A DNA stretch of 64,000 nt from a phage, in the sequence record PZ452608.1, one strand, 5' to 3'. A model generated the notes under the pieces. It searched no databases, was not told where the DNA came from, and saw only the letters and a list, made by a program, of their open reading frames with translations. The translations under genes and the position numbers were made by a program. Every line of letters starts with the position of its first letter. Positions within the stretch are counted from its first letter, which is position 1. Shown here piece by piece: positions 40,066 through 61,305 of the stretch.

Positions 40066-40157
40066 TTGACTCTTTGAACGGGGTTATCTAGTATTTGCAT
40101 CAACGGGGAGGGAATGACCTTCCCCACTAAATAAAGTCCTAAACTGGAGATTCAAAA
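40066..40157 (+). promoter_or_regulatory. type A leader module: sigma70-like promoter, 5' stem-loop, conserved leader and SD
   Basis: TTGACT-17-TAGTAT, then CAACGGGGAGGGAATGACCTTCCCC hairpin, then ACTAAATAAAGTCCTAAACTGGAGATTCAAAAATG; repeated before ORFs at 41718, 42582, 43809, 44706, 45304, 45636. Confidence 0.5.
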
Positions 40158-40538
40158 ATGGCATACCGTGCACCTAAATTCATCAACAAAGACAACTTTC
40201 GCAACGCACTGGAGAAGTCACTTGATGAGAATTTTAAAGGTAACGTTATTGTTGTTCACTCGTTCAATTTCAAGTATGATATTAACGGGAATAAAATCAA
40301 CCATTACACGGCGACAATGCTAGATGGTACTCTTTCAAGTGAAAAAGCCATTTTACATGCACTTGCTGGACGTGGTAAAAACCTGATAAGATGCGATAAG
40401 AGACGTTATCAGGGTGGCGCATATGGTTACGATGATGCTGTTTATCATCTTGAAAATATGGGCTATCAAGTAGAAAAAGCTGGAGTGTCTCAAATAATCG
40501 GTAGTGATGGTTATGTAACAATCTTCAAAATTAACTGA
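40158..40538 (+). CDS. hypothetical protein (array gene 1)
   Basis: 126 aa; type A leader with GGAG SD. Confidence 0.5.
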   Translation: MAYRAPKFINKDNFRNALEKSLDENFKGNVIVVHSFNFKYDINGNKINHYTATMLDGTLSSEKAILHALAGRGKNLIRCDKRRYQGGAYGYDDAVYHLENMGYQVEKAGVSQIIGSDGYVTIFKIN

Positions 40539-40626
40539 TAAAGTACTTTACAAGGGGCTTATAGTTCGATAAAGTAAGCCCCAGATAAAGAGCTTTACCA
40601 CTAAATCCTAAATTGGAGATTCAAAA
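40539..40626 (+). promoter_or_regulatory. type B leader module: GC hairpin plus conserved leader and SD
   Basis: TAAAGTACTTTACA-AGGGGCTTA..TAAGCCCC-AGATAAAGAGCTTTACCACTAAATCCTAAATTGGAGATTCAAAAATG; repeated before ORFs at 41006, 42076, 42873, 44143. Confidence 0.45.
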
Positions 40627-40917
40627 ATGGCTACTATCAAAAACGTTGTAATTCCTGTAAAAACTCGTGATGACGCTCGCATCATGGCGAAAAAGTTAGG
40701 CGGGAAAGTGGTTGACAACGGAAAACAATCTGCTGTAAGATGGGGTGTGAAGGCTGATAAACAGTTGAAGTTAAAAAATTCACCAATAAATCTTTTTACA
40801 TGTGTAAACACTATCGGAAAGACAAATGTATACACGAAAAAGGCATATATTAGACGCGTAGCCTTAACATCTCCAATTCGTACAATGAGAGGTTATGCAA
40901 AGCTGAAAATTAGCTGA
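40627..40917 (+). CDS. hypothetical protein (array gene 2)
   Basis: 96 aa basic protein; type B leader. Confidence 0.5.
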   Translation: MATIKNVVIPVKTRDDARIMAKKLGGKVVDNGKQSAVRWGVKADKQLKLKNSPINLFTCVNTIGKTNVYTKKAYIRRVALTSPIRTMRGYAKLKIS

Positions 40918-41005
40918 TAAAGTACTTTACAAGGGGCTTAAAAGTTGGTATCTTAAGCCCCAGATAAAGAGCTTTACCACTCAATCCTAAACTGGAGATT
41001 CAAAA

Positions 41006-41302
41006 ATGAAATTATCAAATAAAGTTCGTGAAAATCTAAGCAAATTACTCAACAAAATTGATTTCATTGAAACATCAAGAAATAGCCATGATGTTATGGA
41101 ATGGTTACACGGCAAAATAAAAGGTCGTCGTGTAGTGATTTGCTTATGGAATAGTTGCAGGGAGTATAAAAAACCTGTATTGCAAGTTAATATCTATGAT
41201 GATACTCTTAAAAGTCCTGTCAAATCTAAAAGTGATTTATTAGAATCTTATGAGATAACTGTAAGTGGCAAAGTATCACGTAAAGAGGAAGCACCATGTT
41301 AA
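41006..41302 (+). CDS. hypothetical protein (array gene 3)
   Basis: 98 aa; type B leader. Confidence 0.5.
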   Translation: MKLSNKVRENLSKLLNKIDFIETSRNSHDVMEWLHGKIKGRRVVICLWNSCREYKKPVLQVNIYDDTLKSPVKSKSDLLESYEITVSGKVSRKEEAPC

Positions 41303-41628
41303 TGACTGGTATCACTGCAATCATTGCCATTTTCGCGCTCTATAAGGCATATAAAGCCTATAATCTAGCAAATAAGGCAATCACACAACAGGTTAGCAAT
41401 AGCCTTGTAATGAGCTTTCTAGAGCGGTTGAGCGATGAACAATTAAAGCGGTTAGAAATGAGCTTCAGATTCAGGGCGAGAACTTATCAAATCAGCGACA
41501 TTTTCAAAGATGATTTTCAATTAGTCGATGATTATAATTCTCTGATAAATGCTTTAAATATTAGTGACTTAAAAGACTATCATACTGTAATTGTTCAAGA
41601 GTTGAGCAAACGAAAACAAAACTGTTGA
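41296..41628 (+). CDS. hypothetical protein (array gene 4)
   Basis: 110 aa; overlaps upstream gene, no leader module. Confidence 0.35.
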   Translation: MLMTGITAIIAIFALYKAYKAYNLANKAITQQVSNSLVMSFLERLSDEQLKRLEMSFRFRARTYQISDIFKDDFQLVDDYNSLINALNISDLKDYHTVIVQELSKRKQNC

Positions 41629-41717
41629 CACTGATTTTTAGATAGATTAAATTACACATCAACGGGGAGGCAATAAACACCCCACTAAATAAAGCCCTTA
41701 AACTAGGAGATTCTAAA

Positions 41718-41990
41718 ATGTATACTACTAACAACGGTCGCACTTTAAATGTCACTCTACGTCACTATGTAGACGGTGTGATGCACTTTGAGGATTTACA
41801 GGCTGAGCAACATATCTTAGATTGGCAAGTCGCAGGACTCCAAAAAACTGCTACCGGATACGGCAAAAAGATTCCAACTAGCTGGAAAGTATACTATGAA
41901 GGACGTTTGCGCAGAATTTATCAGGATGTATGTAGCAATAGCACATCAAGTTACATCATAGTAAAAGGTAAAAAACTGCATTTAGTATAA
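41718..41990 (+). CDS. hypothetical protein (array gene 5)
   Basis: 90 aa; type A leader (TTGACA-17-TAAATT). Confidence 0.5.
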   Translation: MYTTNNGRTLNVTLRHYVDGVMHFEDLQAEQHILDWQVAGLQKTATGYGKKIPTSWKVYYEGRLRRIYQDVCSNSTSSYIIVKGKKLHLV

Positions 41991-42075
41991 AGTACTTTAC
42001 AGGGGGCTTATTAGTCTGTACAGTAAGCCCCAGATAAAGAGCTTTACCACTCAATCCTAAATTGGAGATTCTAAA

Positions 42076-42480
42076 ATGGCTATTAATAATCGTGAGTTGT
42101 CAATCTTAAAAGCACGTTTAACCGTTAATCGAATCAATGTTATTACATCATCAGCACCGGATGAAACATTGCACAACATTATCGGAAAGATTCAAAGCGT
42201 TATCTTAGACGTTGAAAACGTAAAAAACTCATTGGCTGACGTTGCAGCAGGTATCACGCTAGACGGTGCACAATATGAAATGGTCGACATGTTAGGCAAA
42301 TCTAAGGTAATGAATAAAGAGTTAGACTTGAAAATGTTTAGATTTGCCGTGAAAGTGTGGCTATCTGTTGAGTATGATGCTAATTTTGCAATCGCTGATT
42401 TCTTTGCCACTTGGTTACAACGTAATTTGGCAAATCATGACTTTCGTGACATCTGCGACGCAATTTATGCAGAACTCTAA
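42076..42480 (+). CDS. hypothetical protein (array gene 6)
   Basis: 134 aa; type B leader. Confidence 0.5.
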   Translation: MAINNRELSILKARLTVNRINVITSSAPDETLHNIIGKIQSVILDVENVKNSLADVAAGITLDGAQYEMVDMLGKSKVMNKELDLKMFRFAVKVWLSVEYDANFAIADFFATWLQRNLANHDFRDICDAIYAEL

Positions 42481-42581
42481 AAATTTTATTGACACTGATT
42501 TTTAGATAGATTAAATTACACATCAACGGGGAGGGAATGACCTTCCCCACTAAGTAAAGTCCTTAAACTAGGAGATTCAAA

Positions 42582-42779
42582 ATGGCTATTATCAACGGTT
42601 TAACCATTGAAACCACGCACATCAAAGACATTAAAGTTGGTGATGTAGTTCTTTCCCACGGCGTAGAAAAAACAGTCACTGCAAAGGATATCAAAGATGA
42701 TTCTTTCATGGGTAGAACTCTCTTCGGTGATTCTTATTGCTTAGGTTATCTTGCAGTTTTAAAAGTTGTCAAAAATTAA
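42582..42779 (+). CDS. hypothetical protein (array gene 7)
   Basis: 65 aa; type A leader. Confidence 0.45.
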   Translation: MAIINGLTIETTHIKDIKVGDVVLSHGVEKTVTAKDIKDDSFMGRTLFGDSYCLGYLAVLKVVKN

Positions 42780-42872
42780 CTGATAAAGTACTTTACAAGG
42801 GGCTTATAGTTCGATAAAGTAAGCCCCAGATAAAGAGCTTTACCACTAAATCCTTAAACTAGGAGATTCAAA

Positions 42873-43415
42873 ATGAAATGCTTTCACGGTACTACTCAAG
42901 AAAACTTTATCAACCTGATTAATAACGGTGATAAACCATCAGGTGTATGGAATTGTTCGGATATGGACGGCAATTTTTACGTGTACCCAGAAAATAAACT
43001 CTATGGTGATGATGAGGAAGAGATAGCATCGGAAGGTATCCAGCAAGCTCTAGGAAATGCCACTATCACGGCAGCTTTTCAGATGAAAACTCAAAATATT
43101 GTTATCTTAGAACTTGACATTCCAGAGGATGAGCTAAATGATGATTATTCTTGTGATAACATGTCAAATATAGCAAGCTTTACAGAGTACTTTGATGTAA
43201 ATTGGATTAAAAAGGTCTATACAACAGAGTTCAACGCTATGTATTCACCTTTTTGTCTCCCTTCACTGGATAACCCAAATTTAAATTATCTTGATGAAAC
43301 ATTGGAGCTACTTGCTAAAAGTATCCAACAATCCGACAGTATTCAGGTTTTTTGTGACATCATGGATACACTGACAGAAAACATTGTAGAGAGTGATTTA
43401 AAGGTCTTTTTCTAA
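42873..43415 (+). CDS. hypothetical protein (array gene 8)
   Basis: 180 aa acidic protein; type B leader. Confidence 0.5.
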   Translation: MKCFHGTTQENFINLINNGDKPSGVWNCSDMDGNFYVYPENKLYGDDEEEIASEGIQQALGNATITAAFQMKTQNIVILELDIPEDELNDDYSCDNMSNIASFTEYFDVNWIKKVYTTEFNAMYSPFCLPSLDNPNLNYLDETLELLAKSIQQSDSIQVFCDIMDTLTENIVESDLKVFF

Positions 43416-43481
43416 AAACCTATACATTCACCTTATAAACACTGATTAACCCCTTACAGGGGCTTTTAGAGGGCTTAAATC

Positions 43482-43715
43482 ATGCTTACAACCATTTATC
43501 TCATCCTTTCCATTTGTAACGGCCATTCATGTGACTTTAAAGGGCTTGAAGAGTTTACAGGAAGTAAAGAAAATGCTATTCAAGTTTGCCAGATAGCAAG
43601 ACAAGACTACCCCGCCAGTGATGATATACAATGTTACTTTAAGACAGAAGATGACGAAGGAATCTATTTCGACAGTGTCGATGGTCAATATGAAATTATC
43701 ATTGAAAAAGACTAG
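43482..43715 (+). CDS. hypothetical protein with N-terminal hydrophobic segment (array gene 9)
   Basis: 77 aa; preceded by a different hairpin (CCCCTTACAGGGG). Confidence 0.4.
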   Translation: MLTTIYLILSICNGHSCDFKGLEEFTGSKENAIQVCQIARQDYPASDDIQCYFKTEDDEGIYFDSVDGQYEIIIEKD

Positions 43716-43808
43716 ACAAGCCTGATAAAAGTCTGTAAATTATCAATCAACGGGGAGGGAATGACCTTCCCCACTAAGTAAAGTCCTTAAACTAGGAGAT
43801 TCCAAAAA

Positions 43809-44057
43809 ATGTATACTAAAACTCAACTAAAAAACATGGTTAGCAATGGCTTAATGGATGAAGTCTATAAAGAGTGTAGACGCTACGGGGAAATTAAGGA
43901 TAAGACTAGTTATGAGTATACCCACACAATAGACTTTAAAACCAATGAGAAGAGGACTGACCTTGTTACTGTAGTAGTGATTGAGTATAAACGAATTATT
44001 TGGACCTTTGAGCTAGTAAAAGGTGAGTGCACAGAGATAGAATATAAAGACGCTTAA
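43809..44057 (+). CDS. hypothetical protein (array gene 10)
   Basis: 82 aa; type A leader. Confidence 0.5.
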   Translation: MYTKTQLKNMVSNGLMDEVYKECRRYGEIKDKTSYEYTHTIDFKTNEKRTDLVTVVVIEYKRIIWTFELVKGECTEIEYKDA

Positions 44058-44142
44058 AGTACTTTACATGGGGCTTATTAGTCTGTATAGTAAGCCCCAG
44101 ATAAAGAGCTTTACCACTCAATCCTAAACTGGAGATTCTAAA

Positions 44143-44484
44143 ATGGCTTATGTAACCGTAATTACCGATAAAGCTGGCTCATCTTGGTCAACTCAAGTAA
44201 GTGATAAGATGTCACCTATGCAGTGCCTAAAATACTTTGAACAGTGGAACAAAGGCGAGGGTGTAAGCCCCTTTCAAGTGATGCAAATCATCCATACAGA
44301 TAACGAAGGGAATAAAACGACCTTGAACAGTGAATACTACGCAAGCCGTTTTGAAACGAGAAGTAAAACAATGAAGCTTTTACGTGAATCCGGTTATGCA
44401 CATATTGCCGCTTTAATCTGGGATGACCTGCTAAAAAGTCAGCGTATCAGCTATGTAAAGCCTGAAAAAATCTTCATAAGTTAA
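44143..44484 (+). CDS. hypothetical protein (array gene 11)
   Basis: 113 aa; type B leader. Confidence 0.5.
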   Translation: MAYVTVITDKAGSSWSTQVSDKMSPMQCLKYFEQWNKGEGVSPFQVMQIIHTDNEGNKTTLNSEYYASRFETRSKTMKLLRESGYAHIAALIWDDLLKSQRISYVKPEKIFIS

Positions 44485-44705
44485 TCAATAACTTACAAAA
44501 AACTTTTAAAAAAGTGTTGACAATACCCATTGACATTGGTAACTTTGTTCGAGGGGGTTATCTAAAAGGGATTCACTTAATAGATTCTTTATAGATAAAC
44601 TTAAAAAATTGCTTGCAAAGGCAAATCAAAACAAGTATAGTACTAATCAACGGGGAGGGAATGACCTTCCCCACTAAGTAAAGTCCTTAAACTAGGAGAT
44701 TCAAA

Positions 44706-45236
44706 ATGAACAAGTTTCAAGCTATCAACTACATTCGCTCATCTAACGTTATGACTAAACCCGTTAAAGATACCTTCGAATTTCGTTGCAACGGTGTACA
44801 CTTTGCAACTATCACTAAATCAGAAAACGGGGCTTATTATATACATCGTCGTAATGTTTCTACTGTTGTAGTATCTCACTTTATGCAAGCTGTAGCAGAA
44901 CTGTTACCGCTATTCTTAGGTATTTACTTAGATGAGTGTAAAAACGTTCGCAACCACGTTAAAGACCTTTTAAATGGTTATAAAATGGCTTATGAACGTT
45001 CTATCAAGAATCTTAACAAGTTCTATAAAGCCCCTGAAAACACCGTATCAATAGCTTATGATGTAAGTGGTGAAATGGTCAACCTCTCCAATGTAGAACA
45101 AATTGGCCTTTATGATTTACGTCCTAGCGGTTATTCTAAGACTCTCGGTGAAGGCTTATCCTTCAATATCAAGAACTTAGAAAAAACTTTAAAAGATATT
45201 GAAAAAGATATTGACGAGACAATCAAAAGTCTGTAA
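44706..45236 (+). CDS. hypothetical protein (array gene 12)
   Basis: 176 aa; type A leader with TTGCAA-17-TATAGT. Confidence 0.5.
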   Translation: MNKFQAINYIRSSNVMTKPVKDTFEFRCNGVHFATITKSENGAYYIHRRNVSTVVVSHFMQAVAELLPLFLGIYLDECKNVRNHVKDLLNGYKMAYERSIKNLNKFYKAPENTVSIAYDVSGEMVNLSNVEQIGLYDLRPSGYSKTLGEGLSFNIKNLEKTLKDIEKDIDETIKSL

Positions 45237-45303
45237 ATTGTCAATCAACGGGGAGGGATTAACCTTCCCACTAAGTAAAGTCCTTAAACTAGGAGATTCA
45301 AAA

Positions 45304-45567
45304 ATGGAACACGTAGAATTAACCACACTATTGCAGATTGCAACTGACAAAGAAGACGTAGCGTTGTTTCACCGTATCGAAAGTGATTTGTTCAATGGTG
45401 AAATCATTAAAGAATCTTACGAAGTTGTCGGATTCAAAGATGGTAAAGCATTTGGCTTTTTTGACCTCGACAAAAGCAAAGCGGTTACAATGTACGATGT
45501 TCTATCTTGTGAAATTCTGACAAAATACAACGAAAAAAGGCTTGCAACCTACGCCAATATGCAGTAA
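45304..45567 (+). CDS. hypothetical protein (array gene 13)
   Basis: Start at ATG (MEHVELT) right after type A leader rather than the upstream in-frame ATG of the track ORF. Confidence 0.45.
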   Translation: MEHVELTTLLQIATDKEDVALFHRIESDLFNGEIIKESYEVVGFKDGKAFGFFDLDKSKAVTMYDVLSCEILTKYNEKRLATYANMQ

Positions 45568-45635
45568 ATTACTAAACAACGGGGAGGGAATGACCTTCCC
45601 CACTAAATAAAGTCCTAAACTGGAGATTCTAAATT

Positions 45636-45884
45636 ATGTCAACTATCCGCGTAACTGTTAATGCTTATGGCTGCCACCAACTTGATGCAAAATTCGATAT
45701 CGGTGGAACAGATAACACCTTTGACCTTATCAAAATGCTGATTCAGCAGGTGATACCAGATTATAACCCTACTGATGACTTCTGGAAAGATGCCGTAAAA
45801 GAAGCCATAAACGAGGAATCTCACTACCATTATTGGGGTGACTTGATTGTCTCTCTGTACTACAGCAAACAAGGTTACAACTAA
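45636..45884 (+). CDS. hypothetical protein (array gene 14)
   Basis: 82 aa; type A leader. Confidence 0.5.
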   Translation: MSTIRVTVNAYGCHQLDAKFDIGGTDNTFDLIKMLIQQVIPDYNPTDDFWKDAVKEAINEESHYHYWGDLIVSLYYSKQGYN

Positions 45885-45891
45885 TCGACGC

Positions 45892-45948
45892 AGCGGGGCT
45901 AAATAGCCCCAGATACCTGAAAAGCTCCTTCTCATAGGGGCTTTTTTA
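45892..45948 (+). terminator. tandem terminator hairpins ending plus-strand block
   Basis: GGGGCTAAATAGCCCC then AGCTCC..GGGGCTTTTTT. Confidence 0.45.
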
Positions 45949-45959
45949 CGTCTATAAAG

Positions 45960-47450
45960 AGACTCTATACAATCCCTTTCCTTTCCTTCCTAGAATCTAT
46001 CCCGTACCTTAAAAGCAATAACTCTATAGCTTACTCTATAGCCCCTTATCAAATCAACTTAAATATAAGCCCATAACCCGAAAGGGAAGGGCAACCATTT
46101 AAACGCTCTATAAAGCCCTATAACAGCCTTATCAACCTAACTTAAGCAATCATATTAACCCACTCTAAAAAGCCCTTTATAGAGCTTTCTAGAGCCTTAA
46201 AAGAATCTTATAAGGGTACAAGCTTATAAGCTGGCTAGTATCTTGTGAATATCTAAACAACCCCTTGATAGTCACTAAAAAGTATGTTATAGGGGCTATA
46301 GAGTTACTTCAAAGTTACGTAAAAAGAGCTATAAAGTTACGTAAATGCTAGCCCCCTTAACATTTTCTTAACAATTTCTTAACAATCCCTACATAGTTAT
46401 GCTTGTTAGAGACTTGTTAGCCCCTTGTTAAATCTCTGTTAAGACCATGTAAAAGCCTTGTAAAAGTCTTTGGCATAGCCTTAAAAGCTTCTGTAAAGCC
46501 CTATAAAGAGCTATCCATACAGTTGAGGGGTAGATACTAGTAAGAGGCTTAAAAGAACTTATAAGGGGCTATAGAGAGCTTTTAAGAGGTATGTTTAAGG
46601 AATCACTAAGAGGGAAAGGGAAACGATAAGAAAAGAGATAGTGACCATGTTAATAGCTTGTTAAAAAGATTAAACACTTGTTAGGAACTTGTTAATTATC
46701 TTAATTGGTATTGTTACCAATCCCTACAAAATAACTCTTTAAAATTAACTTGTTAGCTCTTGTTAGTCATCTGTTAAGATTCTGTAAAGCCTATTCAGCA
46801 CTTGTTAAGAATCTATTAAGCTCTTGTTAGTTCTGTTAAGAAACTGTTAAGACCTTTGAAGAGTTGTTAAGAAGATGTGAGAGTTGTTAAGGAATTGTTA
46901 AGGATATTTTAAAATTCTGCAAAGGGGGTGTTACAGGGCTGTTAAGGGCTACCAAGCAGATATACATCCTAATCAGATATTTTTCAGTTCCTTCAAAGAC
47001 CCTAAAAAAATGACTTGATAGTCCTATTTTATAAAAATTTTAAGATTCTGAATAATTACCCAGACAGTCTTTTAAAAATACAGGTAGAAACAGGCTTATA
47101 AGATACCTTGTTAGTACCGTGTTAGACCTTGTGAGATAAGGTCTGTAAAGGTATTCCTGTTAAGTTTGTTAAAACAGTCTATATAGAGGCTTAGTAGTGT
47201 CTAGTGAACACCTATAGAGAGTGTCATAGCTTACATAGAGATTAAGAGGTGTATAGAGGCTTCTAAGAGGGTGTAGAGGGATGGTTAAGGCGATTGTATA
47301 GGTTGTTAAGAAGGCTTGTTAGAAGAGTGTTTAGAGGGCTATTTAGAAGGGTTATACAGAGGGGCTATTAAGACCACTAGATAGTTACTAAGACACTATA
47401 TAGTACTATATAACTATATATATATAGAGAGTAAGATTAAGAAGGTTGTT
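45960..47450. repeat. ORF-free repeat-dense region (iteron-like arrays)
   Basis: No ORF of 60 aa or more on either strand; dozens of YTGTTAAG/CTGTTAAG/TTGTTAG units at roughly 10-12 bp spacing (46380-46450, 46640-46900), CTATARAG-type units (45960-46330, 47160-47300), AT-rich ACTATATAGTACTATATAACTATATATATATAGAGAG near 47390-47440. Confidence 0.55.
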
Positions 47451-47523
47451 AAGAAGGATAGATATTTTATTCACATATGATGGTGACCCAGAGGTTGGGA
47501 CAACCGATAAAATTTTATAAAAA

Positions 47524-47550
47524 TTAAAAAGCCCCCGATTAAGGAGGCTC
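47524..47550 (-). terminator. intrinsic terminator for minus-strand block
   Basis: On minus strand GAGCCTCC..GGGGGCT hairpin then TTTTT. Confidence 0.45.
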
Positions 47551-47560
47551 TTAAGATATT

Positions 47561-48109
47561 TTAAATCAGTGTTTCCAGAACTGTTTTTAGTGATGACTTG
47601 GTTGTCTGATAAAAATGAGTAAAGCCATTGTTGTTATCAAATACCTGCATCATGATATCATCCCCCTTGATTGGGTACACTCGGATATCATAGTGAAAAC
47701 CATTAAAGACACAAGAGCCATTACAGAATGCACTAAAGTCATCCACTGAGATATACTCTTCATGTCCTGTGATTTTTATACAAACACCTTTACTCGGTCT
47801 CTTAGGGTTGATATCTTCCATCACAGACATACTCTGTCCACCAAGAGACACCATAGTGACCACTTTACGGTTCTTCTGTCTAAAGTACATCTTAACTTTC
47901 TGCAAAGTGTCTTCATAGAACGGATAAGACCTTTCTACAAAGATTCCTTCAAGTGGCTCTTTACCATTTTCAACTTCTCGGTTATGCCGTACTGCAAAGA
48001 TAATTTGTTCGAACCAGTCAAGATTTTCTTCGGAGAGTGCTTCCCGAACATCCTTCCAGTCAAGGACTAGATAGTTACCTTCAACATCTTTTAAGTTATC
48101 TTTTTCCAT
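47561..48109 (-). CDS. hypothetical protein
   Basis: Track ORF 47561-48184; start trimmed to internal ATG to avoid 62-nt overlap (uncertain). Confidence 0.35.
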   Translation of the reverse strand: MEKDNLKDVEGNYLVLDWKDVREALSEENLDWFEQIIFAVRHNREVENGKEPLEGIFVERSYPFYEDTLQKVKMYFRQKNRKVVTMVSLGGQSMSVMEDINPKRPSKGVCIKITGHEEYISVDDFSAFCNGSCVFNGFHYDIRVYPIKGDDIMMQVFDNNNGFTHFYQTTKSSLKTVLETLI

Positions 48110-48122
48110 ATCTATCACACCA

Positions 48123-48587
48123 TTATCGTAAAACTTGATATTCTGGTACTGCGAATTTATTACTATTGTTCTTGATGAGGTCATCCTCTGAAACTAAAAA
48201 TGTAATACCACATAAGTGTCTGTAACGACTATCATACTCGAATATCTTAAACAGATATTTACCATCATGATAAACCTGTTGCACTTCACCTTCTGCAACA
48301 ATCTCGCCTGTAATAAAATTTTTTAGTTTATACACATTACCGACCTTAGGTACTGTTTTCATCTCAGGCTCTTTTAGTGCTACACCTATTTTTACATCAC
48401 CGAGTAAATGAGAACTCTCAAAAGCTACGTGTTTCATATAGGCTTCTGAGCATTCCCAAATAAAACAATGTACAAGAACCTTAGCAGCATGTCTTGAGCA
48501 GTTCAACTTATCACAAATTTCTGTGTACATCTCATCTTTAGTAGAATTGTCAAGCATTGCTCTTTGCACTACTTCTTTAATTTTCAT
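48123..48587 (-). CDS. hypothetical protein
   Basis: 154-aa ORF. Confidence 0.4.
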   Translation of the reverse strand: MKIKEVVQRAMLDNSTKDEMYTEICDKLNCSRHAAKVLVHCFIWECSEAYMKHVAFESSHLLGDVKIGVALKEPEMKTVPKVGNVYKLKNFITGEIVAEGEVQQVYHDGKYLFKIFEYDSRYRHLCGITFLVSEDDLIKNNSNKFAVPEYQVLR

Positions 48588-57985: not shown

Positions 57986-58062
57986 CTCTGTTTAGCTCAG
58001 CTTGGTAGAGCGTTCCGTTTGGGGCGGTAAGGCCGGAGGTTCAAGTCCTCCAACAGAGACCA
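57986..58062 (+). tRNA. tRNA-Pro (anticodon TGG)
   Basis: Manual fold: 7-bp acceptor CTCTGTT/AACAGAG, GCTC/GAGC D-stem, loop TTTGGGG, T-arm GGAGG-TTCAAGT-CCTCC, CCA encoded. Confidence 0.75.
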
Positions 58063-58069
58063 AATTAAT

Positions 58070-58147
58070 GTTCCAGTAGACAAAATGGTAAAGTCACCAC
58101 TCTTTCAAAGTGGATATCTGAGGGTTCAAATCCCTTCTGGAACGCCA
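58070..58147 (+). tRNA. tRNA-Glu (anticodon TTC)
   Basis: Acceptor GTTCCAG/CTGGAAC, anticodon stem CCACT/AGTGG, loop CTTTCAA, CCA encoded. Confidence 0.7.
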
Positions 58148-58238
58148 GTTTTGACAGAAGACCAATTACAGCAAACTTAATCTACTCATCTGAAAGTTAA
58201 TCGGACAAAGAAGATATTTGGTCTGGTCATTAAGAATT

Positions 58239-58314
58239 GCGGGTATAGAGAAAGGGCGTCTCACATGTCTCATTAGCATGGTATCGGCAGGTTCGACTCC
58301 TGCACCCGCCTCCA
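58239..58314 (+). tRNA. tRNA with anticodon CAT (Met or Ile-lysidine type), atypical
   Basis: Acceptor GCGGGTA with one mismatch, D-stem GAGA/TCTC, anticodon stem CATGT/GCATG, loop CTCATTA (T at position 37), T-arm GCAGG-TTCGACT-CCTGC. Confidence 0.5.
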
Positions 58315-58398
58315 AATTTACAGAAGACCGTTTACAGCAATATTTATTAAATTTTTAGCGGAAAAAATTGAAAGATACGGTCTGGTAATACTAAACAT

Positions 58399-58475
58399 GG
58401 TTAGGAAGCACATAAGGTATGTGCGGTCGCCTGTTAAGCGAATGGCACAGGGTTCGAATCCCTGACTAACCGCCA
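58399..58475 (+). tRNA. tRNA-Asn (anticodon GTT)
   Basis: Acceptor GGTTAGG/ACTAACC (one mismatch), D-stem GCAC/GTGC, loop CTGTTAA, T-arm CAGGG-TTCGAAT-CCCTG. Confidence 0.65.
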
Positions 58476-58484
58476 AATTTAAAT

Positions 58485-58572
58485 GTGTCGTTATCCCGTA
58501 GATGGTAGCGGTGGGGACTGTAAATCCCTTGTCATTGAGACTCGGTAGGTTCGACTCCTACACGGCACACCA
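58485..58572 (+). tRNA. tRNA-Tyr (anticodon GTA), long variable arm
   Basis: 88 nt; acceptor GTGTCGT/ACGGCAC, loop CTGTAAA, T-arm GTAGG-TTCGACT-CCTAC. Confidence 0.7.
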
Positions 58573-58577
58573 ATAAA

Positions 58578-58655
58578 GGTTATGTAGTTTAATCTGGTTA
58601 AAATACTCCCCTGTCACGGGAGATGATGAGGGTTCGAATCCCTTCGTAACCGCCA
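58578..58655 (+). tRNA. tRNA-Asp (anticodon GTC)
   Basis: Acceptor GGTTATG/CGTAACC, anticodon stem CTCCC/GGGAG, loop CTGTCAC. Confidence 0.75.
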
Positions 58656-58838
58656 ATTTTGATAGGGCTATTTAGCCCCTCCCTTAAAGGGTTCTTACGA
58701 GTATTCTTTAAAGGAGCAGAAGACCAAATTCAGCAAGTTACTTAAAATTTCAAGCCAATTTAATTTTGAAAAATTTAAAACTTGGTCTGGCTCAACAAAT
58801 TTACAGAAGACCGTTTACAGCAAAACTTAAACAATCTA

Positions 58839-58912
58839 TTTCTCCGGTAAAGAAAAGGCGAAGGTTCGATTCCTTCACTCGGCAGATGTCGAGTTGGTGT
58901 AATGGTAGCACT
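58839..58912 (+). other. circularly permuted or rearranged tRNA-like gene (Thr-type anticodon GGT)
   Basis: 58839-58884 encodes anticodon arm (TTTCT-CCGGTAA-AGAAA), T-arm (GAAGG-TTCGATT-CCTTC), acceptor 3' strand ACTCGGC and discriminator; after a 3-nt linker, 58888-58912 encodes complementary acceptor 5' strand GTCGAGT plus D-arm (GTGT-AATGGTA-GCAC). Confidence 0.4.
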
Positions 58913-58943
58913 TAAGATGATAAACAACGGTCTGGTAATTACC

Positions 58944-59073
58944 TTTGTAGATAAGTTATTAAGCTTACTTGTGAGTATGCGACCACAAAGGGTGAATGGG
59001 TAAATTCTAGATTTAAACCCAAAAAGGCACATCGCTACAGACCTTAAGCAAGTCTGGGTAGCTTATCTACAAA
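58944..59073 (+). other. structured element: 12-bp perfect inverted repeat enclosing about 106 nt
   Basis: TTTGTAGATAAG (58944-58955) and CTTATCTACAAA (59062-59073); internal hairpin GGGTAAAT..ATTTAAACCC. Confidence 0.4.
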
Positions 59074-59084
59074 GATAATTTAAT

Positions 59085-59160
59085 GGAAGTGTAGCAGAAT
59101 GGTGATGCGGCAGACTTTTAATCTGACAGGCGATGGGTTCGAATCCCTCCACTTCTACCA
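59085..59160 (+). tRNA. tRNA-Lys (anticodon TTT)
   Basis: Acceptor GGAAGTG/CACTTCT (G-U at 1:72), loop CTTTTAA, T-loop TTCGAAT with weak T-stem, CCA encoded. Confidence 0.65.
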
Positions 59161-59164
59161 ATAT

Positions 59165-59241
59165 GGTTCAGTCGCAGATAAGGTAATGCAAGGGTCTCAT
59201 AAGCCCTATGAATGTGGGTTCGATTCCCATCTGAACCTCCA
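59165..59241 (+). tRNA. tRNA-Met (anticodon CAT)
   Basis: Acceptor GGTTCAG/CTGAACC, anticodon stem AGGGT/GCCCT, loop CTCATAA, T-arm TGGGTTCGATTCCCA. Confidence 0.7.
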
Positions 59242-59242
59242 A

Positions 59243-59318
59243 GCTGGTATAGTTAAGAAGGTTATAACACTCCCCTGATAAGGGAACATCGGTGGTTCGA
59301 TTCCACCTACCAGTACCA
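59243..59318 (+). tRNA. tRNA-Ile (anticodon GAT)
   Basis: Acceptor GCTGGTA/TACCAGT, D-stem GTTA/TAAC, loop CTGATAA, T-arm GGTGG-TTCGATT-CCACC. Confidence 0.75.
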
Positions 59319-59333
59319 ATTTCAATAAAGTTG

Positions 59334-59362
59334 TTGACATTGAGATGTGACTACTTTATAGT
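59334..59362 (+). promoter_or_regulatory. sigma70-like promoter inside tRNA array
   Basis: TTGACA-17-TATAGT. Confidence 0.5.
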
Positions 59363-59566
59363 AACCTTAGTTTTCGTTGCGTAGCGTCTATTTTGCAAAT
59401 TTAAAATAAATGCAAACGACAATGTTTTTCTGGCAGTAGCTTGATAGGCTAAACACCAGTGAGGTCTTCCAATCCCTCATCAAAGAATTTGGCGTACTAG
59501 CCCACGGTATGATTAATAAGGTGGGCATCTTTAAGGGCTTTCTAAGAGAGTCTTTAAAGATAATTA

Positions 59567-59648
59567 CGGGGCGTATCTCAGCGGTCTTCTAAACCGCCGT
59601 TAACCGAGTAAGTGGAGTATGCGGGTTCGAGTCCTGCCGCCTCGACCA
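59567..59648 (+). tRNA. atypical tRNA-like gene (possible anticodon TCT, Arg-type); no canonical D-arm
   Basis: Acceptor CGGGGCG/CGCCTCG, T-arm GCGGG-TTCGAGT-CCTGC, CCA; perfect stem-loop GCGGT-CTTCTAA-ACCGC only 7 nt after acceptor, plus 23-nt extra segment. Confidence 0.4.
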
Positions 59649-59797
59649 ATTTAGTTAGCAGATTACTTAGACGACCTAAACGGGTCTTCCTGTAGGGAGG
59701 TGGTCTGTATCTCATGTTTTCCAGAACATGTAAATAATCTGAGAAGGGGCTTTACAGTGTTGAGATAATACGGTAAGCTTTGAATTATAGTTTTAAT

Positions 59798-59868
59798 AGG
59801 GGTGAGCTATGGCAGCAATAGAGTCTCCAAAATTCTTGATTAGAGTTCGAATCTCTACACCCCTGCCA
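59798..59868 (+). tRNA. short tRNA, probable tRNA-Trp (anticodon CCA), reduced D-arm
   Basis: 71 nt; acceptor AGGGGTG/CACCCCT, anticodon arm AGAGT-CTCCAAA-ATTCT, T-arm TAGAG-TTCGAAT-CTCTA. Confidence 0.45.
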
Positions 59869-59882
59869 GAACAGGTGCTTGT

Positions 59883-60287
59883 ATGAAACTTTGTAGAAAA
59901 TGTTCTCAAGAAAAGCCTTTAAGCTGCTTTCATAAAAGAGGTAATGGCTATCAGTCTGCTTGTAAAGATTGTAAAGCTAAGTACTCAGCAAAGAGATACA
60001 AAGAAGACCCTACTTATAAAGCAAAAAGAAAAGTTAGGGCAAAATATGACAAAAAGAGGAACAGAGAGTTCCTTAGTAGATATAAAAAGTTTTGCAAATG
60101 CAGAATATGTGGCGAATCTGAGCCAGTAGCTTTGGATTTTCATCACTTAGACCCTAAAGAGAAAGATTTTGCTCCAAGCAATCTTAAAACTTACTCTAGA
60201 GGCACTATTAAGCGTGAAGTCCGTAAGTGTGTTGTGCTTTGTTCAAACTGTCATAGGAAAGTTCATGCAGGACTGTTAAGTATTTAA
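59883..60287 (+). CDS. HNH homing endonuclease
   Basis: 134 aa with CRKC, CKDC, CRIC cysteine pairs, HH motif (LDFHHLDP) and CSNCHRKVH; embedded in tRNA array. Confidence 0.6.
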   Translation: MKLCRKCSQEKPLSCFHKRGNGYQSACKDCKAKYSAKRYKEDPTYKAKRKVRAKYDKKRNREFLSRYKKFCKCRICGESEPVALDFHHLDPKEKDFAPSNLKTYSRGTIKREVRKCVVLCSNCHRKVHAGLLSI

Positions 60288-60300
60288 CAGTCTTATTAGG

Positions 60301-60388
60301 GGTAGGTAGCGGCTAATGGCAGCCAAACAGTCTTGAAAACTGTTGCCACTGTAGAGATACGGTGAGGGTTCGACTCCTTTACTTACCG
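60301..60388 (+). tRNA. tRNA-Ser (anticodon TGA), long variable arm; CCA not encoded
   Basis: Acceptor GGTAGGT/ACTTACC, anticodon arm ACAGT-CTTGAAA-ACTGT, 20-nt variable arm. Confidence 0.7.
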
Positions 60389-60544
60389 CCTAATAAGATT
60401 TACTCCGTCCATGCTTGTTCGCATTGTCGGTTTATCCCTCGTGTATTGTCGTACACTGTCAAAGCACCTAGTAGGTGTCACGGAGAAGAGATAATATCAA
60501 GCTCTCCAAAGGTTCTAGTCACCGGATTAAACAAGACTATGCAA

Positions 60545-60565
60545 AGACCTATTTAGGTCTTTTTA
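60545..60565 (+). terminator. intrinsic terminator inside tRNA array
   Basis: AGACC-TATTT-AGGTCT then TTTTT. Confidence 0.5.
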
Positions 60566-60644
60566 GAGGGCTTCTAAGGTTATTAGTCGCTTGTTGTGGA
60601 ACCTTGTTGCTCAGGTTCTTAGAAGTTCTCTAAAAAGATTTAAT

Positions 60645-60721
60645 GCACCTATAGCCCAACTGGTAGAGGCAGCAGACTTAGAATCTGCTCAGTGTGAGTT
60701 CGAATCTCTCTAGGTGTACCA
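60645..60721 (+). tRNA. tRNA with Leu-type anticodon TAG but short (type I) variable loop
   Basis: Acceptor GCACCTA/TAGGTGT, anticodon arm GCAGA-CTTAGAA-TCTGC, 5-nt variable loop, T-arm GTGAG-TTCGAAT-CTCTC. Confidence 0.55.
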
Positions 60722-60728
60722 AATTAAT

Positions 60729-60804
60729 GCAGGTGTAGCAAAATGGTTATGCGGCTGACTCTTAATCAGTAAGACGATGGGTTCAATTCCCTCCACCTGT
60801 ACCA
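60729..60804 (+). tRNA. tRNA-Lys (anticodon CTT)
   Basis: Acceptor GCAGGTG/CACCTGT, anticodon arm GCTGA-CTCTTAA-TCAGT, T-loop TTCAATT. Confidence 0.6.
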
Positions 60805-60810
60805 AACAAT

Positions 60811-60886
60811 GGGGTCATAGTTTATATGGTTAAAATTCGAGTTTTGCAAACTTGGGAACTGAGTTCAATTCTCAGTGACTCCACCA
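60811..60886 (+). tRNA. tRNA-Ala (anticodon TGC)
   Basis: Acceptor GGGGTCA/TGACTCC, anticodon arm CGAGT-TTTGCAA-ACTTG, T-arm CTGAG-TTCAATT-CTCAG. Confidence 0.7.
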
Positions 60887-60892
60887 ATTAGT

Positions 60893-60967
60893 GCATCCAT
60901 AGTTTAAACGGGAAAATTACAGTCTTCCAAACTGAGGTTGAGGGTTCGATTCCCTCTGGATGCTCCA
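60893..60967 (+). tRNA. tRNA-Gly (anticodon TCC)
   Basis: Acceptor GCATCCA/TGGATGC, loop CTTCCAA, T-arm GAGGG-TTCGATT-CCCTC. Confidence 0.7.
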
Positions 60968-60974
60968 AATTAAT

Positions 60975-61050
60975 GCTCCTATCGTATAATTGGTTATTAC
61001 GGTTGCCTTGTAAGCAACTTATCAGGGTTCGAGTCCTTGTGGGAGCACCA
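60975..61050 (+). tRNA. tRNA-Thr (anticodon TGT)
   Basis: Acceptor GCTCCTA/TGGGAGC, anticodon arm GTTGC-CTTGTAA-GCAAC, T-arm CAGGG-TTCGAGT-CCTTG. Confidence 0.75.
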
Positions 61051-61146
61051 ATTCGGAGGTCAAGTGAAAGACCGCTTTGAGTCAACTGAAGACCGTAACA
61101 AATTCCACGAAGTTGAGTTAGCGGCACAACTTCAGACCTCTTTCAT

Positions 61147-61221
61147 ACTCGCTTAGTTTATATGGTAAAACATCACCCTTACAAGATGAAGAAAAAGGTT
61201 CAAGTCCTTTAGTGAGTACCA
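61147..61221 (+). tRNA. tRNA-Val (anticodon TAC)
   Basis: Acceptor ACTCGCT/AGTGAGT, loop CTTACAA, T-arm AAAGG-TTCAAGT-CCTTT. Confidence 0.65.
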
Positions 61222-61222
61222 T

Positions 61223-61300: not shown

Positions 61301-61305
61301 ATTTT

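What the first reader, a model, noticed from the sequence alone, without database searches (positions are those of the whole stretch)
45900..47560. 1.6-kb ORF-free region packed with phased short direct repeats
Seen in sequence: no ORF of 60 aa or more on either strand between the convergent plus and minus gene blocks, unusual for a compact phage genome. Two sub-arrays carry dozens of YTGTTAAG / CTGTTAAG / TTGTTAG units at about 10-12 bp spacing (46380-46450 and 46640-46900). Other stretches carry CTATARAG-type units (45960-46330, 47160-47300), a direct repeat AAAGTTACGTAAA, and an AT-rich block (ACTATATAGTACTATATAACTATATATATATAGAGAG near 47390-47440). Helical phasing of a short motif next to an AT-rich unwinding-type element is the signature of iterons, a centromere-like partition site, or another high-occupancy protein-binding array; no specific binding protein can be named.
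Basis: seen in the sequence. Interest (0 to 1): 0.7.

Follow-up and report, generated by a model that had tools for sequence, protein, structure and literature searches.

The report
Phage genome ends with phased repeats
The gene-free 1.6 kb stretch is where this Felix O1-like phage's packaged DNA begins and ends: a roughly 600-base terminal repeat and its flanks, filled with short motifs spaced one DNA turn apart that most likely guide cutting and packaging, much like the poorly understood repeat arrays at the ends of phage T7.

Summary
The window is Escherichia phage wV8 (Felixounavirus). Between convergent gene blocks, 45,936-47,560 has no ORF above 28 aa. TGTTA occurs 29 times against about 3 expected, and lag-11 autocorrelation reaches z = 9.3.

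Relatives ZX4221 and NBEco004 carry exact 591- and 628-bp repeats at both record ends, mapping to window 46351 and 46953. UAB_69's annotated DTR maps to 46349-46955. Erwinia phage M7, a fourth genus, has an exact 444-bp repeat with homologous boundaries. Papers report 581-613 bp DTRs in the genus.

The wV8 DTR (about 46351-46953) holds 22 of the 29 TGTTAR heptamers. Three inverted copies sit at its left end and 19 forward copies run to its right end, so both ends finish on an outward-facing TGTTAAGGG. Fourteen sites are positionally invariant in 11 phages of three genera. Indels favour 11 and 22 bp.

The closest analogue is the T7 concatemer junction (13 CCTAAAG units, 13-bp period).

Best reading: DTR plus concatemer-processing and packaging signals, with an unidentified binding protein. 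An iteron origin or a centromere is not supported. The kind is known; the array detail is undescribed in the literature I could search. Interest is moderate.

The parts
45636..45884 (+). gp27, last gene of the plus-strand block (rightmost gene of the packaged genome); function unknown
   Evidence: wV8 annotation. PHROG 4559, unknown function. No Pfam hit.
45895..47552 (.). Whole non-coding concatemer-junction region, from terminator to terminator
   Evidence: No ORF above 28 aa. Conserved in more than 250 phage records.
45895..45947 (+). Two hairpins that end the plus block: GGGGC-TAAATA-GCCCC, and AGCTCCT-TCTCAT-AGGGGCT followed by T6
   Evidence: Read directly from the sequence. The second was not listed by the consensus scan. 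Michonne and Moogle annotate a terminator at the homologous place.
45948..46350 (.). Left non-coding flank. It carries CTCTATAG / CTATAAAG / CTTAAAAG units followed by C-runs; the plus strand is C-rich (GC skew -0.3 to -0.5). These units are inverted relative to the same unit class to the right.
   Evidence: (inverted pairs I7, I17, I19). Identity to the other genera is 0.76, with blocks at 0.9.
46311..46345 (.). Two copies of AAAGTTACGTAAA, each containing the palindrome TTACGTAA. Copy 2 (46333-46345) lies 6 bp outside the left DTR boundary and is near-invariant.
   Evidence: copy 2 identity 0.98/0.94; copy 1 0.54/0.69.
46351..46953 (.). Direct terminal repeat, 603 bp (boundaries +/-2 nt; the UAB_69/M7-type boundaries give 46349-46955). 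It is present once in this window, as in a concatemer or a collapsed assembly.
   Evidence: The exact terminal repeats of ZX4221 (591 bp) and NBEco004 (628 bp) map to 46351 and 46953. UAB_69's annotated DTR maps to 46349-46955. The record ends of pEP20, CRP22, BPS15Q2 and ECOH1 also fall here. M7 has a 444-bp exact repeat with homologous ends.
46356..46384 (-). Three inverted heptamers (CTTAACA, the reverse complement of TGTTAAG) at 11-bp spacing, directly inside the left DTR end
   Evidence: Nearly invariant in 11 phages.
46402..46443 (+). Four forward TTGTTAR units at exactly 11-bp spacing. The orientation switch lies at about 46395.
   Evidence: Three of the four are present in all 11 phages.
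46444..46645 (.). Central DTR segment with TGTAAAAG / CTTAAAAG / CTATAAAG / GGGGCTATAGAG units. It contains the predicted curvature peak of the window (about 46430-46500).
   Evidence: Curvature comes from one search, which used wedge parameters recalled from memory, so this is weak evidence.
46646..46946 (+). Main forward array: 15 TGTTAR heptamers at 9-11 bp or multiples. The last one (46940) is the outward-facing TGTTAAGGG at the right DTR end.
   Evidence: 11 of the 15 are positionally conserved in all 11 phages.
46704..46725 (.). wV8-specific 22-bp (two-unit) insertion, absent from the 10 other aligned phages
   Evidence: identity 0 across these columns.
46954..47526 (.). Right non-coding flank. 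It starts with the invariant AAGCAGATATACATC, then carries 7 more TGTTAR units and G-rich TATAGAG / TAAGAGG units (GC skew +0.3 to +0.5).
47395..47431 (.). AT-rich block: three CTATATAR units plus a (TA)n tract whose length varies between phages
47527..47552 (-). Rho-independent terminator that ends the minus block
   Evidence: 10-pair stem plus T-run. Annotated in wV8 at 15531-15548.
47561..48184 (-). gp28, last gene of the minus block (leftmost gene of the packaged genome); function unknown
   Evidence: PHROG 4330, unknown function.

Best explanation
The region is the concatemer junction of a T7-style, fixed-end phage. It contains the direct terminal repeat (DTR, about 603 bp, window 46351-46953 +/-2) and the two non-coding flanks that separate it from the outward-facing terminal genes.

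Shown:
- The homologous segment is exactly duplicated at both ends of related genome records, and is annotated or published as the DTR.
- The two boundaries are the best-conserved spots in the region.
- The DTR is densely tiled with TGTTAAG-type heptamers at about 11-bp spacing, and their positions are conserved across genera.

Inferred:
- The heptamer arrays, and the related CTATARAG-type units in the flanks, are cis-acting binding sites for a sequence-specific protein. This could be an unidentified small-terminase-like factor or another junction-binding protein. It would load head-to-tail on one face of the helix and build a higher-order complex.
- Because the array flips orientation about 45 bp inside the left boundary, both DTR ends terminate in an outward-facing TGTTAAGGG(N3-7)|(W)AGCA.
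- That symmetry fits terminase nicking opposite strands at the two boundaries, followed by strand-displacement synthesis that duplicates the repeat during packaging (the classical T7 model).
For: Identity and spread: the window is 100% identical to wV8 EU877232 13900-15560, and 197 further records carry at least 80% of the region.

Physical ends:
- ZX4221's first and last 591 bp are identical and map to 46351 and 46953.
- NBEco004 has a 628-bp exact repeat at the same two boundaries.
- UAB_69 has a repeat_region annotated 'DTR' that maps to 46349-46955.
- pEP20, CRP22, BPS15Q2 and ECOH1 are opened at one or the other boundary.
- Erwinia phage M7 (Kolesnikvirus) has an exact 444-bp repeat at both record ends, with homologous boundary sequences.

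Published DTRs in the genus:
- 608 bp by Bal31 digestion plus run-off sequencing in UAB_Phi87, where wV8 TerL clusters with DTR-type terminases (PMC4837284).
- 613 bp by PhageTerm in Ro111lw, a close relative of O157 typing phage 12, which is 100% identical to this region (PMC6454146).
- 581 bp in Pr103Blw (PMC8303462).

Functional constraint:
- The boundaries show 0.96-0.97 identity across 11 phages.
- The region is 77-83% identical to Suspvirus and Mooglevirus. The neighbouring gp27 is 65-72% (partial in Moogle) or gives no blastn match in Sf15, Michonne and Felix O1.
- TGTTA core columns score 0.88-0.90 against 0.66-0.78 for spacers in the distant genera.
- Each phage has 17-20 forward plus 3-5 reverse heptamers in its DTR, and 14 sites are present in all 11.
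- The pairwise indel spectrum peaks at 11 and 22-24 bp, and DTR lengths are 8 or 9 mod 11 in 9 of 11 phages.

Symmetry:
- The two DTR ends are inverted repeats of each other (pairs I1, I2, I12, I13).
- A single strand of the DTR folds end-to-end, z about -2.9 on both strands.
- A TGTTAAGGG 9-mer is shared at both boundaries, p about 0.02.

Precedent: the T7 junction has 13 CCTAAAG units in and beside its 160-bp repeat, with lag-13 z = 7.4.
Against: - No end determination exists for wV8 itself, and the window holds only one copy of the repeat.
- The boundary differs by 2 nt per side between record sets.
- No binding protein is identified. No small terminase is annotated or detectable upstream of terL.
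- An array spread over 1.6 kb is far larger than characterised terminase recognition sites.
- The function of the analogous T7 arrays is itself unproven (my own knowledge).
- The boundary symmetry is only modestly significant.
- Conservation shows constraint but does not say which process imposes it.
Confidence: 0.75

Rival explanations
1. The arrays lie in the DTR but serve a function other than packaging. They could be a binding track for a host or phage regulator or nucleoid protein acting on the first DNA to enter the cell. Possible roles include end protection, recruitment or titration of a host factor, silencing or activation of the terminal genes, or promotion of end-to-end recombination.
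For: The 7-bp core plus 4-bp spacer in head-to-tail arrays is the geometry used by OmpR/PhoB-family regulators: the pho box is 7+4 bp, and the PhoP box is TGTTTA-N5-TGTTTA (my own knowledge, not tested). The DTR is present twice per genome and is at whichever end enters first. The heptamer is conserved in phages of Escherichia, Salmonella, Shigella, Citrobacter and Erwinia. No terminase small subunit was found.
Against: There is no evidence for any particular binder. TGTTAR differs from the PhoP box at a conserved position. The tight link between array orientation and the two cut sites is more easily explained by end processing. Flank unit types differ between genera (TTCTAAG in M7), which suggests a co-evolving phage factor rather than a fixed host factor.
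Confidence: 0.15
2. The region is an iteron-type replication origin: repeats bound by an initiator next to an AT-rich unwinding element.
For: There are phased direct repeats, an AT-rich block at 47395-47431 and one DnaA-box match at 47467. T7 has secondary origins (phiOL, phiOR) next to its terminal arrays (annotation; my own knowledge). An origin and a DTR could coexist.
Against: The units have a 7-8 bp core at an 11-bp period, not the 17-22 bp typical of iterons. No initiator gene is adjacent. DnaA boxes are not enriched: 7 in 64 kb, 1 here, and that one is mutated in VpaE1, UAB_69, SUSP2 and Mooglevirus. The AT block is repeat units plus a length-variable (TA)n tract. Cumulative GC skew shows a maximum here, not a minimum, and tracks gene orientation.
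Confidence: 0.07
3. The region is a non-functional satellite: slippage-generated 11-bp tandem units tolerated in a non-coding spacer around the ends.
For: Indels occur in whole units (11 or 22 bp), there is a wV8-specific 22-bp insertion, and the (TA)n tract varies in length. This shows that slippage does occur.
Against: Fourteen heptamers are positionally invariant across three genera. Cores are more conserved than spacers. The region is more conserved than the adjacent gene gp27. The same heptamer and architecture persist in Kolesnikvirus.
Confidence: 0.02
4. The region is a centromere-like partition site or a non-coding RNA locus.
For: R1 parC also uses 11-bp iterons (my own knowledge). The region is bracketed by terminators, so an independent transcript is conceivable.
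Against: The phage is virulent and no ParA/ParB/ParR was detected. No Rfam family matches: the best hit has E = 0.33 and overlaps the terminator. Promoter-like sites score only 9 of 12 and are barely above shuffles. The fold z-scores are equal on both strands, as expected for DNA-level inverted repeats rather than an RNA.
Confidence: 0.01

Closest known systems
Direct terminal repeats already reported for Felix O1-like phages: UAB_Phi87 608 bp, Ro111lw 613 bp, Pr103Blw 581 bp, the UAB_69 GenBank 'DTR' feature, and the Erwinia phage M7 record ends
   Same: This is the same homologous DNA segment. The boundaries of UAB_69, ZX4221 and NBEco004 map onto window 46349-46955 or 46351-46953, and the boundary sequences are conserved in M7.
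   Different: Those reports give only a length or a feature. None of the papers I could search describes the phased heptamer arrays, the orientation switch or the inverted boundary sites. The wV8 record is opened at rIIA and leaves the segment unannotated.
Phage T7/T3 concatemer junction: a 160-bp terminal repetition with the SRL/SRR short-repeat arrays (Dunn and Studier 1983; my own knowledge, with the sequence checked here)
   Same: Both are fixed-end phages with a short DTR lying in a non-coding junction. Both have a 7-bp unit repeated head-to-tail at roughly one helical turn, inside and beside the repeat. T7 has 13 CCTAAAG units at a 13-bp period, lag-13 z = 7.4. In both, the function of the arrays is unresolved.
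   Different: There is no sequence homology (CCTAAAG against TGTTAAG). In T7 most units flank the repeat; here 22 of 29 lie inside it. The period is 11 bp rather than 13. The DTR is four times longer and the whole arrayed region about three times longer. T7 has phage-RNA-polymerase promoters (phiOL, phiOR) at the junction, and none is evident here.
Terminase recognition sites built from repeated elements: lambda cosB (R1-R3 plus an IHF site), P1 pac (seven TGATCA/G hexamers around the cut) and SPP1 pacL/pacR (my own knowledge)
   Same: In these sites, short repeated motifs flank a defined cleavage site and are bound by a small terminase that bends or wraps the DNA.
   Different: Those sites span about 100-200 bp with 3-7 repeats. 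Here there are roughly 50 units over 1.6 kb and two cut sites 600 bp apart. No small terminase gene is recognisable.
Iteron replication origins (lambda ori, P1 oriR, plasmid iterons) and the R1 parC centromere (ten 11-bp iterons bound by ParR) (my own knowledge)
   Same: These are arrays of direct repeats in helical phase, bound cooperatively by a dedicated protein. parC shares the 11-bp period.
   Different: No initiator or partition genes are adjacent. The array is tied to the genome termini. The phage is virulent. DnaA and AT-rich features are not conserved.

Membership tests
Short exact direct terminal repeat of a fixed-end (T7-type packaging) phage | The same sequence is present at both ends of virion DNA | tested here: met
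   This is met for homologous segments in relatives: ZX4221 591 bp, NBEco004 628 bp and M7 444 bp are exact at both record ends, and UAB_69 carries a DTR feature. It was not directly testable for wV8, because the window holds a single collapsed copy.
Short exact direct terminal repeat of a fixed-end (T7-type packaging) phage | The termini are unique and not permuted | not testable with these tools
   No reads or virion DNA are available. The published evidence for relatives is Bal31 plus run-off sequencing (PMC4837284) and PhageTerm (PMC6454146; PMC8303462). It is consistent that independent records converge on the same two boundaries.
Short exact direct terminal repeat of a fixed-end (T7-type packaging) phage | The boundary sequences are conserved in the query genome | tested here: met
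   The left boundary is ...AAGTTACGTAAATGCTA|GCCCCCTTAACA and the right boundary is ...TGTTAAGGGCTACC|AAGCAGATATACATC. Both are near-invariant in 11 phages of 3 genera and recognisable in M7.
Short exact direct terminal repeat of a fixed-end (T7-type packaging) phage | The large terminase belongs to a DTR-type clade | not tested
   terL starts at window 64001, just outside the window. PMC4837284 places wV8 TerL in the Felix O1-like DTR cluster.
T7-type short-repeat arrays at the concatemer junction (SRL/SRR) | A heptamer-scale unit is repeated head-to-tail at about one helical turn, in or next to the terminal repeat | tested here: met
   wV8: 29 TGTTAR units, lag-11 z = 9.3. T7: 13 CCTAAAG units, lag-13 z = 7.4. 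This is an analogy of architecture only.
T7-type short-repeat arrays at the concatemer junction (SRL/SRR) | Sequence homology to the T7/T3 arrays | tested here: not met
   The unit, the period and the placement all differ. The DNA searches with the region returned no T7-like phage: the organism tallies list only Escherichia, Salmonella, Shigella, Citrobacter, Erwinia and a few other names, and every listed hit is Ounavirinae.
Iteron-type replication origin | An adjacent initiator (Rep, O or DnaA-like) gene | tested here: not met
   Eight flanking proteins have no Pfam hit and match only PHROGs of unknown function.
Iteron-type replication origin | A conserved AT-rich unwinding element and DnaA boxes next to the iterons | tested here: not met
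   The AT block is repeat units plus a variable (TA)n tract. The single TTATTCACA is not enriched (7 in 64 kb) and is altered in several relatives.
Iteron-type replication origin | Replication initiates here | not testable with these tools
   This needs marker-frequency data or 2D gels. GC skew is confounded by gene orientation.
Centromere-like partition site (parS/parC) | Adjacent ParA/ParB or ParM/ParR genes and a plasmid or prophage lifestyle | tested here: not met
   No such domains occur in the neighbours. Felixounaviruses are virulent.
Terminase small-subunit recognition site (cosB/pac type) | Bound by a small terminase encoded next to terL | tested here: inconclusive
   The genes upstream of terL (window 62620-63979) match only families of unknown function. 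None of the listed records names a small terminase there; of 292 matching records, 60 were shown, and among those with annotation all give 'hypothetical protein' or bare gp numbers. Binding cannot be tested.
Structured non-coding RNA | A match to a known RNA family, or strand-specific structure | tested here: not met
   Rfam gave nothing relevant. Fold z-scores are -2.9 and -2.8 on the two strands, which points to DNA-level inverted repeats.

The most novel reading that the evidence does not exclude
The roughly 22 positionally conserved, helically phased TGTTAAG heptamers inside the DTR, together with the unit arrays in both flanks, may form a polymerisation track for an unidentified sequence-specific protein. 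This could be a non-canonical small terminase or a dedicated 'junction' protein. It would assemble outward from the orientation switch at about 46395 and so define both nick sites. In that case the array would measure and delimit the terminal repeat. Whole-unit (11-bp) length changes would then be tolerated because they preserve register. This would give a concrete mechanism for how short terminal repeats are recognised and duplicated, a question still open for T7.
Probability: 0.2. Interest if true: 0.65.

Novelty: new member of a known kind. Interest (0 to 1): 0.38.

Why it matters
Practical value: it fixes where the wV8 genome, and more than 250 related genomes, really begin and end. Most of these records are opened arbitrarily or annotate spurious small ORFs across this DNA. 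It also explains a conspicuous 'gene desert'.

Scientific value: it provides a second, much larger and deeply conserved example of phased short-repeat arrays at a short-DTR concatemer junction. The example spans four genera, with cut-site flanks that are near-invariant in three of them. How terminases of fixed-end phages recognise the junction, make two cuts hundreds of base pairs apart and duplicate the repeat is still poorly understood. It is especially unclear in phages with no recognisable small terminase. Felix O1-like phages are genetically tractable and widely used for typing and biocontrol, so the arrays offer a testable system.

Tried and rejected
- Rfam scan of 45500-48000: only a sub-threshold Phe-leader hit on the terminator.
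- Sigma-70 promoter scan: only 9-of-12 matches inside the region, barely above shuffles.
- Pfam and PHROGs on 8 flanking proteins and on 3 proteins upstream of terL: no DNA-binding, Rep, Par or small-terminase signal. The records listed (60 of 292 matching records) also name no small terminase.
- DnaA-box scan: one match, not enriched and not conserved.
- Whole-region Fourier analysis: the peaks are no better than the best shuffles because the phase drifts. Autocorrelation was the informative statistic.
- Intrinsic-curvature model: there is one strong peak in the DTR, but the regional mean is only modestly raised and the parameters were recalled from memory. I treat it as weak.
- GC skew: it is uninformative because it follows gene orientation.
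- I first misjudged Erwinia phages as lacking the array after reading an unrelated gap in FIfi106. This was corrected by an IMG/VR pattern scan that recovered phage M7.
- The UAB_Phi87 record start (near the tRNAs) is not at the DTR, so it could not be used for mapping.
- REP10 and MET-P1-301 have terminal overlaps of 77 and 544 bp that look like assembly artefacts, so I did not use them.
- The DR_1-DR_9 repeats annotated upstream are hairpin-plus-RBS cassettes, not the same units.
- Literature searches found no description of the arrays or of T7 SRL/SRR in the open library. The PhageMaP Bas63 preprint text gives no data for this locus.
- The first variable-gap pattern scan of viral contigs failed.
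Full report
**What the window is.** The 1,661-bp finding is 100% identical to Escherichia phage wV8 (EU877232.1 13900-15560) and to three O157 typing phages. A further 197 phage records, nearly all Felixounavirus, carry at least 80% of it at 80-95% identity. The window is a permuted copy of the wV8 record, with window position = record position + 32,000 in this part. In wV8 the stretch is unannotated except for one terminator. The two founding genome papers do not discuss it.

**Checking the observation.**
- No ORF longer than 28 aa exists in any frame between 45,940 and 47,555.
- The plus-strand block ends with gp27 (45636-45884) and two hairpins. The minus-strand block ends with gp28 (47561-) and a strong terminator at 47527-47552.
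- TGTTA occurs 29 times against 2.9 +/- 1.6 in dinucleotide shuffles. TGTTAR occurs 26 times against 1.75. The CTATARAG/CTCTATAR/CTTAWAAG class occurs 18 times against 0.8.
- Of the 17 TGTTAR-N3-6-TGTTAR pairs in the whole 88.5-kb genome, 14 are here.
- Autocorrelation peaks at lag 11 (z = 9.3), with shoulders at lags 10 and 12 and harmonics at 21-22 and 31-33. The three 1.5-kb stretches with the highest lag-11 identity in the window all overlap the region.
- Long-range phase is not kept, so the whole-region Fourier signal is weak. The period is about 11 bp rather than 10.5.

**What it is.** A more sensitive search showed that many related GenBank records start or stop inside this region, and that one of them (UAB_69) has a feature labelled DTR under the match. 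I fetched record ends and mapped them.
- ZX4221's first and last 591 bp are identical and map to window 46351 and 46953.
- NBEco004 has an exact 628-bp repeat with the same two boundaries.
- pEP20 is opened at 46953, and CRP22, BPS15Q2 and ECOH1 at about 46351.
- UAB_69's annotated DTR maps to 46349-46955.
- The laboratory behind UAB_69 determined a 608-bp DTR in the sister phage UAB_Phi87, using Bal31 digestion and run-off sequencing. It placed wV8's large terminase in the same DTR-type cluster (PMC4837284).
- PhageTerm gave 613 bp for Ro111lw, a close relative of typing phage 12, which is identical to this region (PMC6454146). It gave 581 bp for Pr103Blw (PMC8303462).
- An IMG/VR pattern scan for three phased heptamers recovered Erwinia phage vB_EamM-M7 of the genus Kolesnikvirus. 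Its record carries an exact 444-bp repeat at both ends.
- The M7 repeat begins TTAGCCACTTTTACATTTCGTTAACAA and ends ...GCGGCCACTAA|GTAGATATACA. These are plainly homologous to the wV8 boundaries TGC|TA|GCCCCCTTAACATTTTCTTAACAA and GGGCTACC|AA|GCAGATATACA.

The wV8 direct terminal repeat is therefore window 46351-46953, give or take 2 nt per side. The window shows it as a single copy, as in a concatemer junction or a collapsed assembly. In the packaged genome, gp28 and the minus block sit at the left end and gp27 and the plus block at the right end. Both blocks are transcribed toward the ends.

**Anatomy.**
- The left flank (45948-46350) carries CTCTATAG/CTATAAAG/CTTAAAAG units followed by C-runs.
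- The same unit class reappears to the right in the opposite orientation (GGGGCTATAGAG and similar). GC skew flips from about -0.4 to about +0.45 near 46400-46500.
- Just outside the left boundary lies a near-invariant AAAGTTACGTAAA containing the palindrome TTACGTAA.
- The DTR opens with three inverted heptamers (CTTAACA at 46356-46384).
- It switches orientation at about 46395, then has four forward TTGTTAR at exactly 11 bp.
- Next comes a central segment of TGTAAAAG/CTTAAAAG/CTATAAAG units, then 15 more forward TGTTAR units up to 46946.
- Both DTR ends therefore finish in an outward-facing TGTTAAGGG, followed 3-7 nt later by the cut and then (W)AGCA (shared 9-mer, p about 0.02).
- The two DTR ends are inverted repeats of each other (I1, I2, I12, I13). 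A single strand of the DTR is predicted to pair end-to-end (z about -2.9 on either strand).
- The right flank starts with the invariant AAGCAGATATACATC. It carries seven more heptamers and G-rich TATAGAG units.
It is three CTATATAR units plus a (TA)n tract of variable length.

**Evidence of function.** I aligned 11 phages from Felixounavirus, Suspvirus and Mooglevirus.
- The region is 77-83% identical between genera. The adjoining gp27 is 65-72% identical (partial in Moogle) or gives no blastn match in Sf15, Michonne and even Felix O1.
- The boundary zones are 0.96-0.97 conserved.
- TGTTA core columns are 0.88-0.90 conserved in the distant genera, against 0.66-0.78 for spacer columns.
- Every phage keeps 17-20 forward and 3-5 reverse heptamers in its DTR, and 14 sites are present at the same aligned position in all 11.
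- Indels cluster at 11 and 22-24 bp. DTR lengths (559-633 bp) are 8 or 9 modulo 11 in 9 of 11 phages, so change occurs in whole units and register is preserved.
- M7 keeps the heptamer, the orientation switch and the boundary flanks, but uses a different 11-bp unit (TTCTAAG) in its left flank.

This pattern excludes neutral satellite DNA. It points to a sequence-specific binder, more probably encoded by the phage than by the host.

**How it most likely works.**
- Shown: this is the DTR and the surrounding concatemer junction of a fixed-end phage.
- Inferred: the phased units are binding sites that assemble a nucleoprotein complex on one DNA face. The complex marks the junction and presents the two symmetric boundary sites to terminase.
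- Nicks on opposite strands at the two boundaries, followed by strand-displacement synthesis, would duplicate the repeat. This is the classical T7 model (my own knowledge), and the inverted symmetry of the boundaries is what that model predicts.
- The binder is unknown. The three genes upstream of terL match only families of unknown function, and none of the listed records names a small terminase.
- The intrinsic-curvature model gives one strong peak in the DTR, but it rests on parameters recalled from memory.

**Rivals.**
- Iteron origin: there is no initiator gene. The single DnaA-like box is neither enriched nor conserved. The AT block is repeat units. The skew maximum follows gene orientation.
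- Partition site: the phage is virulent and has no Par genes.
- ncRNA: there is no Rfam match, no convincing promoter, and the fold signal is independent of strand.
- A non-packaging role for a DTR-resident array (host-factor binding, end protection, early entry) cannot be excluded. The 7+4-bp head-to-tail geometry resembles OmpR/PhoB-family sites, but that is only a recalled resemblance.

**Comparison with known systems.** The DTR itself is already known for the genus. The closest architectural analogue is the T7 concatemer junction. I checked the T7 sequence and found 13 CCTAAAG units (2 left of, 3 inside and 8 right of the 160-bp repeat) at a 13-bp period, with lag-13 z = 7.4. The present case shares no sequence homology with T7. 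It differs in unit, period (11 bp), scale (about 50 units over 1.6 kb) and placement (mostly inside the repeat). I found no paper in the searchable library that describes these arrays.

**Verdict.** The true identity is the genome terminus and direct terminal repeat, with conserved phased heptamer arrays. It is a new, well-conserved member of a known kind, of moderate interest.

Noticed in passing
window 40101-45629 (e.g. 40101-40153, 42521-42584, 45577-45629): The DR_1-DR_9 repeats annotated in wV8 are recurring cassettes placed directly before the ATG of many small early genes. Each is a hairpin (GGGGAGGGAATGACCTTCCCC or GGGGCTT...AAGCCCC) followed by ACTAAATAAAGTCCTAAACTGGAGATTC. They look like shared 5'-UTR/RBS or RNA-processing modules. 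They are not the DTR units.
   Followed up: partly
window 46704-46725: A 22-bp (two-unit) insertion, TTGGTATTGTTACCAATCCCTA, is present only in wV8 among the 11 aligned phages. It contains the inverted repeat TTGGTA/TACCAA.
   Followed up: no
between window 46968 and 46969 (alignment insertion): VpaE1 (Felixounavirus) and Moogle (Mooglevirus) share an identical 24-bp insertion, ATGAGGTAGATTCTACCGAATCAA, 15 bp outside the right DTR boundary. Their closer relatives lack it. This patchy distribution suggests recombination between genera at the junction.
   Followed up: no
window 45636-45884 (gp27) compared with L015:137-385: wV8 gp27 and Felix O1 ORF23 have the same length and position but give no blastn match, while the adjacent non-coding DNA is 92% identical. 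There is a sharp mosaic boundary at the end of the plus block.
   Followed up: partly
L021:4850-4990 (Erwinia phage FIfi106): Four repeats of about 30 bp (CTATGCACAAATTSAAAATGAAAAAC) lie in a 460-bp gap just upstream of a terminator. That terminator is 91% identical to the wV8 terminator at window 47517-47560. This locus is different from that phage's DTR.
   Followed up: no
L106:70-240 (IMG/VR contig 3300046374_000002, 60 kb): A contig with no blastn similarity to wV8 starts with at least 14 CTAACA units (the reverse complement of TGTTAG) at a spacing of 9-13 bp, at its very end. It may be an independent case of a terminal heptamer array.
   Followed up: no
window about 1253 and 63084; wV8 record 55058 (outside the window): These are the only three phased TGTTAR pairs outside the region, against about 0.5 expected. 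The one at wV8 55058 lies in the intergenic gap between tail-fibre gene 83 and gene 84.
   Followed up: no
window 57986-63556: A cluster of 26 tRNA genes lies on the plus strand, ending about 450 bp before terL, which starts at window 64001.
   Followed up: no
L013/L014 (MET-P1-301), L009/L010 (REP10): Some 'complete' records carry terminal overlaps of 544 bp or 77 bp inside the DTR that do not reach the conserved boundaries. These are probably assembly artefacts rather than true ends.
   Followed up: partly
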